Below, piece after piece: positions 27,001-30,000 of a stretch of DNA of 64,000 nucleotides. A program made the position numbers. Each line of letters opens with the position of its first letter. The stretch's first letter is position 1. Origin of the DNA: an uncultured Trueperaceae bacterium (GTDB lineage Bacteria > Deinococcota > Deinococci > Deinococcales > Trueperaceae); NCBI GenBank assembly GCA_963799485.1, contig CAWCXJ010000007.1, positions 504,401 through 568,400 of the forward strand, in the 5' to 3' direction.

Positions 27001-30000
27001 CGCGGTAGGCGCACAACCGAAGGAGTCAGATGCAACACCCTAAAGGTGTCCTAATCGAACGAGCCAAGCAGTTGGGTCTCGGCAAACCGAACTTTGACAC
27101 ACACAATACCGGCCCTGAACACGAACCGCTTTTTGAAAGCACCGTAACAATTCGCGGTGAGGTTTACGGCGAAGGTGAAGGCGGCACCAAGCGCGACGCC
27201 GAACGCCGCGCCAGCGAAGAGGCGTTAGACGCCCTTAAAGATACGCGGCGCGAAAAGAGCTCCGTCAGTCAGAGCGAGGCTTTCCCGGGCGACGAATCTT
27301 TTGACGGCCCCTGGCCTATTTTCGCTGAGGTCTTAGCCGCGAGTCTAAACGTCGCGCACGCCCGCGTGAACCCGACCCTGACCGGCCCGGACGCGATTAC
27401 CGAGGTGCAGGCGCTCGCTTTGCAACTTTACAAGGGTAGCTTGGAAGGGCTCGGCGAAGTCGTCGAGTTGGATGAACCCGAACAAGACTGATTTACGGGT
27501 TGGTTTTCGCCCAGCGTTCGATACGGGTCAACTCTTCGGTGGCTTTTTCTTTTTTGAGCAGCTCGAGTACCTTGGGCTGCGCCGTAAAGTCGCCGGTGCC
27601 GATAATCTCAATGACATCGACCATCTTGGCGCTAAAGGCGCGCAGGGGCACTTGAGTCGCACCCTCGCTCACCTCAGGACTCGGGCGGCTGAGCTTGAAA
27701 AGCGGCCCGTCGAGGGCGTTGCGGGGCGTTTCGTCGAGTTCGGCCAGTACGTCGCCGTAATCGTCGGTCAGGATAAGGTAGCGTCTCATAAAGAGAGCCT
27801 AGCACTTGGTCACGCCGGAGATTGCGCCGAGGCTGCGTTTGCCAGAAGTCGCCGCGCTTGCGGCGTAATTTCGCGGCGTAATCTACGCAACGTGCGCTGC
27901 AAGCCTGCAAGTCCTCGTCAAGTTCTAACCGGGCGATGCCATACTTGGAGCTATGACAGATACGGATACAACAAATACGGACATGACAAATACAGTGGAC
28001 GACGCGCTCACGCCCGCAACCGCCGACGCGGTAGCTGCTATCTGTCTGATGGCGGCGTTTGCCGACGGGCAAAAAGGCTCGGACGAGCAAAAGCGGTTAG
28101 AAGAAATTTTTAGCAGCTTGGGTGAGGTCAACGCCGGAACGCTCTACAGCCGCGTGATGCTCGGACGAACGGACGTGCAACAAGAAGCCGCCGCCCTCAC
28201 CACGCCGGAACTCCGTACCCTCGCCTTTGAGATGGCGCTGAGCGTCTGCGACGCCGACGGCTCGATGAGCGAGGCGGAAGGGGTCTTTCTGGGTCAGCTG
28301 CAAGAAGCGCTCACGGTTCCGGCAGCGGCGGCGATGACGGCGCAAAGAGACGCGGAACAGCTTGCTGAAATGCCGGTCGAGACGTCCGGGCAAATTGCGA
28401 CGGCTGTACCGGAAACCGAGTCTGAAACGGCTGAGGGAGCCCTCGAGCAAACTATCTTGAACGCCGCTATCTTAAACGGGGCTTTGGAGCTTTTGCCCCA
28501 GTCTCTAGCCACCGTCGCCATCATCCCGCTACAGTTACGTCTCGTCTACACGGTCGGGCAAACTTACGGCTACACGCTAGACCGCGCCCACCTCAAGGAG
28601 TTTCTAGGCGTCGCCGGGGTCGGCATGACCTCACAGGTCGTTGAAGGGCACGTGCGTAAGCTGTTCGGCAATTTCGCCAAAAAAACGGTAGGGCGCGGTA
28701 GCAAAAAGCTTGCCAGCGCCGCAGCGGGCGCAGCGCTCACCTTTGCCACGACCTACGCACTCGGACAGGCCGCCAAGAGGTATTACGGCGGGGGGCGCAA
28801 ACTCGAGCTGACCGAAGTCCGTGCCCTGTTTCAGGAGCAGCTAGGGCAGGGGCAGGAACTCTTCAACAAGTATCAGGGCGACGTGCAGACGAAAGCCGAA
28901 ACGACCAATGTGCAGAGTTTGCTGAAGCTGATTCGGTAAGGGTAGAAGCAGGGAGTAAGAAGCAAGAATCAGGAAGACGGTCTCACGAGGTTTAAGCACA
29001 TAAAAAGCGCCCGATACAAAACCGGGCGCTGCTGTACTCTAGTTGAGCCTAGCGCGAGTGGGGATTAGTAACGCGAACCCCGTGACGAACGATCTGAAGC
29101 GGGCGCGGCGTTCGTAACCTTGACGTTGGTCGCCTGCATCCCTTTTTGACCGCGTTCGGTGTCGAACTCGACTTCATCGCCTTCGTTGAGGTTGCGGTAG
29201 CCGTCACCGGTAATCGCCGAGAAGTGGACGAAAAGGTCTTCGCCGCCGCCTTCTTGTTCGATAAAGCCGAAACCTTTTTCGCCGTTAAACCACTTAACTT
29301 TGCCTGTTGCCATTTTTTACCAATCTCTCTTCTACTGCATTTTACACGTAAAGCCGAAATGCTGTATTCGCGTTGCAGTAGACAACCTCGGGCAGCTGCC
29401 CGAACCACAACGCTTACCTTTGTTGCAGATGACCTGACTATAAACTATTCAGGACCCTAATACAAGTCGTCACCTTGCGGCCTCGACAAGCTTATTCCAC
29501 AACCCGCTAGAAAGCGTTGTCTCCTTTGTCGGGTTTATCAAGGTCTTGCAAGATGCTGTAACGCCGGGGTTCTTCAGCGGCGCTTCTTAGGTCGCGCTGA
29601 ACTTGCGTGCTGATCACCTCTGCGCTCGGCAGGTCGTTGTCCCAGCGCACGCCGCTGCCGTGCTCGAGTTCGGCCATCGCCGCCGTGACCGCATTTTCGG
29701 CGTTTGCAATGACCTTGCCGGTCAGGGTCGAAGGGACGCCCTTTTTCAGCTGTGCGGCGCGCCGCCCGACGACAATCGACAAACGGTAACGTGAGTCGGT
29801 GGCTTCTCTTAAAACATCAAACCCTTTTTGGGACATGGCGCACTCCGTTCGGTGTCCGGCCCCTAGAATGCTGCCGAAACCACAACCCGTTATTTTGCGG
29901 GGATAACCTCAGCGTAACAGGTTTGACCTCGAGTCGGTGTCTTGCAGTGCTGCGCCAGCTCAACGCGAGTTGGGGAAGGGAGTTATACCCCCAAAGGCTC

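What a model noticed while it worked through the whole genome (the two positions that open the first line are those of the whole stretch)
29065..29836. A second RNA polymerase omega subunit (rpoZ2) linked to a cold-shock protein gene
Besides rpoZ in gmk-rpoZ-coaBC (C1:82940) the genome encodes an intact, diverged second omega subunit (g02307, 54% identical) directly upstream of a csp gene. Second omegas recur in Truepera and other Trueperaceae genera, mostly beside a csp gene, which suggests a stress-specific alternative RNA polymerase subunit.
Evidence so far: Calls 14, 121: a second copy in 5 of 6 Truepera species and in G001, G047, G057 (5 of the 61 genomes of call 14 have two or more). Call 122: open frames of 101-128 aa that keep the SRYRLS..RA.Q motif; a csp gene is adjacent in 7 of 8 intact second copies fetched; the Truepera second copies form one clade (support 0.98) apart from the gmk-linked genes.
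(Added by a program. Inside this text positions count along the whole contig: contig position 504,401 is position 1 of the stretch shown here. "Call 12" and the like, gene names such as g00115 and contig names such as C1 are that model's own, and its searches are not shown. The text may have been shortened before it was handed on; [...] marks where a part breaks off. The agent that wrote the report below was given it as the finding of a first reader that could run no searches.)

Follow-up and report, generated by a model that had tools for sequence, protein, structure and literature searches.

The report
Second RNA polymerase omega subunit gene
This bacterium keeps a second, diverged and still conserved gene for the smallest RNA polymerase subunit, beside a cold-shock-type protein gene, and relatives place the same extra gene beside a spare sigma factor, which suggests, untested, that some bacteria swap this subunit under stress.

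Summary
Confirmed. Window 29507-29836 (-) encodes an intact 109-aa omega paralogue, 54% identical to the gmk-rpoZ-coaBC copy, 193 bp upstream of a csp gene. Extra omegas occur in 8 of 128 Trueperaceae genomes and 0 of 197 other Deinococcota. The copy is under purifying selection (dN/dS 0.04-0.09), keeps the omega core and is modelled on the sole beta-prime at the usual site (0.83 vs control 0.01; possibly from likeness to solved complexes). Each gene has its own promoter-like element, so an operon is not shown. The csp link is real but partial: 5 of 9 loci of this clade. Three others sit behind a second RpoD-like sigma and a 73-aa orphan gene; that orphan also precedes the extra omegas of another genus, pointing to a loose csp / sigma / orphan / omega stress module. 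Separately, 6 of 251 Rhizobiales-order genomes have extra omega matches; the 5 examined lie among Hsp20/FtsH-type stress genes. Best reading: a conditionally expressed accessory omega. Expression, cold induction and binding are untested. No study of omega paralogues turned up in my searches.

The parts
29507..29836 (-). rpoZ2: second RNA polymerase omega subunit, 109 aa
29911..29919 (-). Predicted extended -10 promoter element of rpoZ2 (TG-n-TACGCT); no consensus -35 seen
   Evidence: A -10-like hexamer lies 6-7 nt before the conserved leader start in 9 of 9 omega2 loci, with TG-n in 8 of 9. Not called by the consensus scanner. Inferred.
29837..29904 (-). Predicted 68-nt 5' leader of rpoZ2 with an invariant 9-nt box at 29852-29860 and a Shine-Dalgarno GGAG at 29843-29846
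   Evidence: GCCGGACAC invariant in 9 of 9 omega2 leaders; folding no better than shuffles, z -1.4 to +1.2
29871..29886 (-). Leader stretch shared with the csp leader, about 20 nt after the inferred start site
   Evidence: significant in G000, G125, G126, weak in L054, not in G123
29437..29465 (-). Predicted sigma-70-type promoter of the csp gene (TTGTAT, 17 nt, TATAGT)
   Evidence: Same spacing and -35/-10-like hexamers in 5 of 5 loci; below the scanner's threshold. Inferred.
29314..29430 (-). Predicted 117-nt structured 5' leader of csp, with the shared stretch at 29396-29411
   Evidence: z -2.4 here, -1.0 to -4.2 in five loci; second hairpin kept with a two-sided change in L054
29065..29313 (-). 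csp: cold-shock-domain protein, 82 aa, with a Deinococci-type C-terminal extension; a subtype seen only beside omega2
28998..29030 (-). Intrinsic-terminator-like hairpin and T run after csp, facing the convergent TerB-domain gene
   Evidence: 1 found; shuffles give 2.5 on average, so the count alone is no evidence

Best explanation
rpoZ2 is an accessory omega subunit. SHOWN by computation: it is an intact paralogue that arose inside Trueperaceae, is kept by purifying selection, and conserves the residues modelled against beta-prime. INFERRED: it is transcribed from its own promoter under a stress or slow-growth condition, together with a dedicated Csp subtype, and then occupies the omega site of the cell's single beta-prime in addition to or in place of omega1. 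There it does what omega does (folds and latches beta-prime, stabilises the elongating enzyme) but with a changed surface (net charge about 0 against -5, Ala24 to Gly at the beta-prime contact, different linker and tail), so that polymerase assembly, stability or sigma preference shifts under stress. The window's omega2-csp pair is one surviving subset of a looser module whose parts in relatives are csp, a second RpoD-like sigma lacking region 1.1, two small orphan genes (X, Y) and the extra omega.
For: Selection: dN/dS 0.037-0.094 in the 7 close omega2 pairs against 0.069-0.089 in the 3 matching omega1 pairs. Family size: 47 of 48 database homologues put in the tree fall on the omega2 side. 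Fold: the 50 listed Foldseek matches are chains of RNA polymerase entries, each weak (E 0.08-1.2); PDB sequence hits are Thermus omegas, E 3e-4. One rpoC per genome. Complex model beta-prime 625-1510 with omega2: score 0.83, best of 3 controls 0.01; mark reached by 116 of 157 solved and 2 of 215 mismatched pairs in calibration; runs agree in at least 91% of contacts, partner pLDDT at least 71; contacts at beta-prime 758-772, 1214-1222, 1480-1500. omega1 and omega2 of G000 are identical at 31 of 51 modelled interface positions and 17 of 49 others. Context: the adjacent csp is its own subtype (top 4 hits among 128 genomes, 144.8 bits or more against 130.9 next; clade of 5, support 86, leader box in 5 of 5 against 0 of 36 other Csps) and stays adjacent through a change of orientation (G123). 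L055-L057 read sigma2-X-omega2; G088 and G089 read csp-Y-X-omega; G023 reads csp-sigma2-Y-X; G101 csp-sigma2; G124 sigma2-X; X of L055 and L040 are homologous (30%, E 2e-12); these sigma2 proteins group together (support 87). Neighbours of the G088/G089 copies include baeRF, ferritin-like, PRC-barrel and DoxX genes. Parallel case: extra omegas in 5 of 5 examined Rhizobiales-order genomes lie beside an NDUS4-like gene, with FtsH or a piece of it in 4, Hsp20 in 3 and a trypsin-like protease in 2. Literature: omega affects sigma selection (PMC7700224, passages), processivity and termination (PMC13192885, abstract and Discussion) and heat acclimation (PMC4227741, abstract).
Against: No expression or binding data. 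The complex pass may come from likeness to solved Thermus polymerases and does not show that this copy binds. 4 of 9 omega2 loci have no csp nearby; the three sigma-linked loci come from one metagenome assembly and are near kin (sigma 96% identical). G000 and G125 have only one RpoD-like sigma, and G000's X lies about 242 kb away. Of 22 X matches in the family only 2 have an omega and 2 a sigma within 1.5 kb. G122 (closed, 99% complete) and 120 of 128 family genomes show no second copy; G124 also has a truncated third copy and G089 a broken csp, so the module is lost often. Codon adaptation against rpoC is lower for omega2 (0.56) than omega1 (0.70). omega2 diverges faster between distant species (59% and 48% against 87% and 83%). 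PMC13192885 disputes the sigma-selection role of E. coli omega.
Confidence: 0.55

Rival explanations
1. Dosage or back-up copy: omega2 binds beta-prime exactly as omega1 does, confers no new property, and the csp or sigma neighbours are passengers of the same mobile stress islands.
For: Interface better conserved than the rest; patchy distribution and frequent loss; partners vary between loci and X mostly lies elsewhere; only 4 positions are diagnostic between the clades at a 70% rule.
Against: Invariant leader box and conserved promoter-like element in 9 of 9 loci; a csp subtype found only beside omega2 and adjacent in two orientations; both groups of extra omegas have lost the acidic net charge of omega1.
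Confidence: 0.25
2. omega2 acts mainly off the active enzyme: as a holding chaperone for free beta-prime, or a factor that parks polymerase during dormancy, possibly with protein X.
For: Neighbours of the G088/G089 copies include a baeRF-family protein; aeRF1-like Balon hibernation factors sit in stress operons (PMC10901736, passages; that this baeRF7 protein is Balon-like is my inference, untested); Rhizobiales copies lie among protein-quality-control genes.
Against: The modelled contacts include the beta-prime C-terminal tail as in the assembled enzyme; no such neighbours flank the window's own copy.
Confidence: 0.15
3. Artefact: a decaying duplicate, or contamination of the assembly (G000 is listed at 4.6% contamination).
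For: A truncated copy exists in G124; long stem branch in the trees.
Against: dN/dS under 0.1; the gene lies on a 568-kb contig that also holds mutS-mutL and the primary sigma, with the same downstream neighbours in G125 and G126; a rock-metagenome contig bridges 29240-29781 with 61 other letters in 535.
Confidence: 0.03

Closest known systems
Bacterial RNA polymerase omega (RpoZ; Pfam PF01192; Thermus omega in PDB 2o5i_E, 1iw7_E, 1hqm_E)
   Same: Fold, conserved first-helix and third-helix motifs, modelled site on beta-prime.
   Different: Second copy outside gmk-rpoZ (gmk-rpoZ synteny holds in 18,302 of 23,517 genomes, PMC9973325 passage), own promoter-like element and leader, near-neutral instead of acidic, tied to csp / sigma2 / X.
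Duplicated core subunits: two rpoB paralogues of Nonomuraea gerenzanensis (PMC5431353) and two alpha subunits of Francisella (PMC3294249)
   Same: Paralogues of a core RNA polymerase subunit coexisting in one genome.
   Different: Those concern beta and alpha; in Francisella the title reports one heterodimeric enzyme, whereas omega has one site per enzyme, so two omegas imply exchange or mixed populations. Seen as search listing and start of abstract only.
Deinococcal Csp / PprM (PMC6300522, PMC5624153)
   Same: Cold-shock domain with the class-specific C-terminal extension.
   Different: A distinct subtype seen only beside omega2; orthology to PprM not tested; PprM was reported as not cold-induced, so the name does not fix the inducing stress.
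[quoted passage not shown]
   Same: Principle of carrying diverged second copies of core genes (Hsp20, FtsH, DegP, KefB) in a stress island; the Rhizobiales extra omegas sit among such genes.
   Different: The review never mentions omega or rpoZ (0 occurrences); the window's locus has none of these genes; the Rhizobiales islands were not tested for tLST membership.

Membership tests
RNA polymerase omega / RPB6 family | Scores over the Pfam PF01192 cut-off | tested here: met
   30.3 bits against 26; omega1 scores 34.9
RNA polymerase omega / RPB6 family | Conserved regions kept (three named CR1-CR3 in PMC7700224; their boundaries are recalled, not read) | tested here: met
   S15 R16 Y17 L19 R26 Q29 and N48 V50 A53 E56 are 100% conserved in 56 omega2 rows and 98-100% in 58 omega1 rows
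RNA polymerase omega / RPB6 family | Omega fold | tested here: met
   AlphaFold2 model, mean pLDDT 68, helices 2-13, 16-31, 49-58, 72-92; listed Foldseek matches are RNA polymerase chains but none reaches E 0.001
RNA polymerase omega / RPB6 family | Binds beta-prime at the omega site | tested here: inconclusive
   Model passes (0.83, best control 0.01) but like complexes are solved, so it shows likeness only
RNA polymerase omega / RPB6 family | Present in the cell's polymerase and promotes its assembly | not testable with these tools
   Needs pull-down and reconstitution
Housekeeping rpoZ (equivalog) | Directly downstream of gmk | tested here: not met
   Flanked by mutL and csp; the gmk-linked gene is C1:82940
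Housekeeping rpoZ (equivalog) | Over an NCBIfam omega cut-off | tested here: inconclusive
   17.6 bits against 58 for NF001579; omega1 was not scanned as a control
Cold-shock-induced regulon | Long structured 5' leader / Rfam cspA thermoregulator | tested here: inconclusive
   csp leader 117 nt and structured; RF01766 21.1 bits here and 36.8 in G123 against gathering 78; other Csps of the genus also seem to have long leaders
Cold-shock-induced regulon | Induced on temperature downshift | not testable with these tools
   No RNA run listed as holding the stretch
rpoZ2-csp operon | One transcript from one promoter | tested here: inconclusive
   No terminator called between the genes, but csp has its own conserved promoter-like element and is divergent in G123

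The most novel reading that the evidence does not exclude
Omega is an exchangeable subunit: under stress these bacteria build an alternative polymerase by swapping omega (in some lineages together with a second RpoD-like sigma and the orphan protein X), changing sigma preference or processivity across the genome; unrelated bacteria (Rhizobiales order) have independently recruited accessory omegas into stress islands for a like purpose.
Probability: 0.3. Interest if true: 0.87.

Novelty: new variant of a known kind. Interest (0 to 1): 0.66.

Why it matters
Omega's role is still argued over (assembly chaperone, sigma selection, ppGpp site, processivity latch), and it is normally treated as a single fixed subunit. 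A natural pair of omegas, 54% identical, competing for one site on one beta-prime is a ready-made experiment on what omega's surface does, and if exchange is regulated it would add a layer of transcriptional control besides sigma switching. The linked second sigma, dedicated Csp and orphan protein X give concrete partners to test.

Tried and rejected
RNA thermoswitch in the omega2 leader: a cold-favoured alternative fold appears in G000 (box pairing 0.96 at 4 C, 0.05 at 37 C) but not consistently in the other 8 leaders, folding is no better than shuffles, and RNAalifold found only 3 pairs without two-sided changes: rejected as a general feature. Shared leader stretch as a regulon box: the 17-nt pattern occurs exactly twice in the genome and twice in the window, but it was derived from these two sites, so those counts are circular; the fair test gave 5, 30, 3, 440 and 3324 of 20000 random 50-mers scoring as well (G000, G125, G126, L054, G123), so it is kept as a possible trace of leader duplication only. 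Loss of the Lys in the AMKE motif as an omega2 mark: not diagnostic (K in 29% of omega2 rows). One origin or two for the extra omegas: neither omega2 plus the G011/G088/G089 copies (p-AU 0.60) nor omega2 plus the genus's own omega1 (p-AU 0.70) is rejected. Bootstrap trees did not finish. Mobile carriers: no omega2 on viral contigs or plasmids; no tRNA called beside omega2-clade loci. Expression: no RNA holder listed; one probably-DNA 'metatranscriptomic' run covered only the conserved csp start. Protein X: no Pfam hit, no PDB sequence hit, no Atlas hit, no fold match above background (best Z 7.0, rmsd 2.9, 69 aligned). Rfam: nothing at gathering score in the leaders. Literature: searches listed no study of rpoZ paralogues or of Truepera omega (listings read; the 'rpoZ2' of PMC9405252 is a footnote mark; the other two 'rpoZ2' hits were not opened); subscription papers and supplements were not seen.

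Full report
Observation. The window holds, on the minus strand, a 109-aa ORF at 29507-29836 and an 82-aa ORF at 29065-29313, 193 bp apart, between mutL and a convergent TerB-domain gene. The first passes the Pfam omega/RPB6 cut-off (30.3 against 26), the second is a cold-shock-domain protein. The genome has exactly two omega genes and two csp genes; the other omega, 53.7% identical, lies between gmk and coaBC, the usual place (PMC9973325, passage). There is one rpoC. GC content of the locus (0.55) is near that of its flanks, and the downstream neighbours are the same in G125 and G126, so contamination is unlikely.

Distribution. Two or more omega matches occur in 8 of 128 family genomes: 5 of 6 in the genus (named Truepera in the record titles), plus G011, G088 and G089. 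With the Pfam model over 299 genomes of the phylum the same 8 appear and none of the 197 genomes of other families has two. G090, an unpublished genome, is one of the single-copy rows in these tallies and a control row; no claim depends on it. A protein database search gave 55 homologues; of the 48 of suitable length placed in a tree, 47 fall with omega2. The omega2 clade has SH-aLRT 98-100 and nests inside the family's omegas when rooted on other Deinococcota, so it is a duplication within Trueperaceae. The extra copies of G011, G088 and G089 form another group (support 87-91, long-branch warning). Neither their union with omega2 (p-AU 0.60) nor omega2 with the genus's own omega1 (p-AU 0.70) is rejected: one or two origins cannot be told from 110 columns.

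Is it functional? dN/dS is 0.037-0.094 in the 7 close omega2 pairs and 0.069-0.089 in the 3 matching omega1 pairs; distant omega2 pairs give 0.13-0.33 with near-saturated dS, and omega2 diverges faster than omega1 between distant species. The model has the omega helices, and its listed fold matches are polymerase chains, all weak. ESMFold2 placed omega2 on beta-prime 625-1510 with score 0.83 against a best control of 0.01 (calibration: 116 of 157 solved and 2 of 215 mismatched pairs reach the mark; runs agree in at least 91% of contacts; partner pLDDT at least 71), touching the stretch after NADFDGD, 1214-1222 and the C-terminal tail. Thermus complexes are solved, so this shows likeness, not binding. 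Independent of that caveat, omega1 and omega2 agree at 31 of 51 modelled interface positions and 17 of 49 others. Four positions are clade-diagnostic (E4K, A24G, T49A, L75I), Gly24 being among the closest modelled contacts, and mean net charge is -5.3 for 58 omega1, +0.3 for 56 omega2 and +1 to +9 for the four other extra copies.

Regulatory anatomy. All 9 omega2 loci held have a -10-like hexamer, mostly with TG-n, 6-7 nt before a 57-71-nt leader that contains an invariant GCCGGACAC just upstream of the Shine-Dalgarno. The csp has its own -35/17/-10 element in 5 of 5 loci and a 102-118-nt structured leader; a terminator-like hairpin follows it. These are inferences from conservation; the consensus scanner called no promoter. 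The two leaders share a 16-17-nt stretch at the same offset, significant in three genomes, weak in one and not in G123. A cold RNA switch was predicted for G000 only and is rejected as general.

The csp link and what lies behind it. Of 13 intact extra copies, 9 have a csp within about 650 bp (one broken); within the omega2 clade 5 of 9. The linked Csp is a subtype of its own: the top four hits among 128 genomes are the omega2-adjacent ones, and its leader box is in 5 of 5 of them and 0 of 36 other Csps. A rock-metagenome contig gives one more tandem example. Three loci without csp (L055-L057, one metagenome assembly, close kin) instead read sigma2-X-omega2, where sigma2 is a 351-355-aa RpoD-like protein with Pfam regions 1.2 to 4 only whose region 2.4 and 4.2 motifs are nearly the same as in the primary sigma (region names recalled). 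X, a 73-aa helical orphan, also directly precedes the extra omega in G088 and G089 (csp-Y-X-omega), follows sigma2 in G124, and ends a csp-sigma2-Y-X run in G023; G101 has csp-sigma2. These sigma2 proteins group together (support 87). This reads as a loose module kept in subsets. Against it: X occurs in 17 of 128 genomes and only 4 of its 22 matches have an omega or sigma within 1.5 kb; elsewhere it sits by Usp, Crp-type, KaiC-type, desaturase and other genes; G000 has one RpoD-like sigma only and its X is at C7:291438, after a Usp gene.

A parallel outside the phylum. As a baseline I counted omega matches in 251 genomes of the order of a Mesorhizobium locus: 6 had two or more. In the 5 examined, the extra copy is a diverged omega (four of one type) beside an NDUS4-like gene in 5 of 5, with FtsH or a fragment in 4, Hsp20 in 3, a trypsin-like protease in 2, and GrpE, PsiE, AhpC and a KefB-like antiporter in one, genes of the kind listed for tLST islands (PMC8290217, passages; omega not mentioned). 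So extra omegas are rare but not unique to Truepera, and recur in stress contexts.

Mechanism. Omega folds and latches beta-prime and has been tied to sigma selection (PMC7700224, passages), to processivity and termination with the sigma role disputed (PMC13192885, abstract, passages and Discussion), and to heat acclimation in Synechocystis (PMC4227741, abstract). With one omega site per enzyme, two selected omegas imply exchange or mixed populations. I put 0.55 on a conditionally expressed accessory omega with changed properties, 0.25 on a plain back-up, 0.15 on an off-enzyme chaperone or parking role and 0.03 on artefact. Cold as the trigger is not shown: deinococcal Csps act in other stresses, and PprM was reported as not cold-induced (PMC5624153, PMC6300522, passages).

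Novelty and verdict. Paralogues of beta (Nonomuraea) and alpha (Francisella) are in print (listing only); searches listed nothing on omega paralogues, within an open-access library and without supplements. The finding is a new variant of a known kind, real and well supported as a gene, untested as to function. Interest 0.66; 0.87 if regulated omega exchange proves true (probability 0.3).

Noticed in passing
L374-L383 (G488, G546, G517, G385, G404): Diverged second omega genes in Rhizobiales-order genomes, beside an NDUS4-like gene in 5 of 5 loci, among Hsp20, FtsH and trypsin-like protease genes; four share one sequence type. Worth its own survey.
   Followed up: partly
L055:2088-2309, L209:6885-7106, L040:3547-3789, G000:C7:291438-291653: Orphan 73-aa helical protein X (invariant Y20, Y38, R61, L64, Q65), in 17 of 128 family genomes, found next to sigma2, extra omega, Usp, Crp-type, KaiC-type and desaturase genes; no family or fold match.
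   Followed up: yes
L040:3786-3959, L043:5249-5470, L209:6677-6823: Orphan Y of about 50-57 aa between csp or sigma2 and X; a remnant with a stop precedes the third omega of G089 (L041). No Pfam hit; not folded.
   Followed up: partly
L209-L224; Second RpoD-like sigma factors are common in Trueperaceae (up to 5 matches in G055) and fall in several groups; G123, G124 and G126 share one further paralogue group (support 100).
   Followed up: partly
L036:3051-3275 (G124:C131): Truncated third omega copy lacking about the first 40 residues.
   Followed up: partly
L037 about 6600-6740 (G123:C117), between csp and omega2: tRNA-like stretch (Rfam tRNA 21.6 bits, below gathering 29; not called by ARAGORN), with pilin-type genes on both sides.
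   Followed up: no
L041:3549-5683 (G089:C38): F-type ATP synthase genes (beta, epsilon, gene 1) and DoxX just downstream of the third omega copy.
   Followed up: no
window 36560-40046: IS1 transposase pieces, a cytidine deaminase ORF whose C-terminus looks replaced after the zinc motif, split DDE transposase and a phage integrase, with GC falling to 0.50-0.52: probably the edge of an integrated element.
   Followed up: no
window 22413-24118: Crp-type regulator next to a MerR / B12-binding regulator, resembling the Thermus ldrP-litR light-sensing pair (recalled).
   Followed up: no
window 27030-27491: Stand-alone double-stranded-RNA-binding-domain protein with an acidic C-terminal part, present in all 6 genomes of the genus.
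   Followed up: no
G000:C7:193488-193784 (L248): Homologue of the 120-aa ORF that follows the extra omega in G089, with an apparent stop near its end, close to dnaK-grpE-dnaJ.
   Followed up: no
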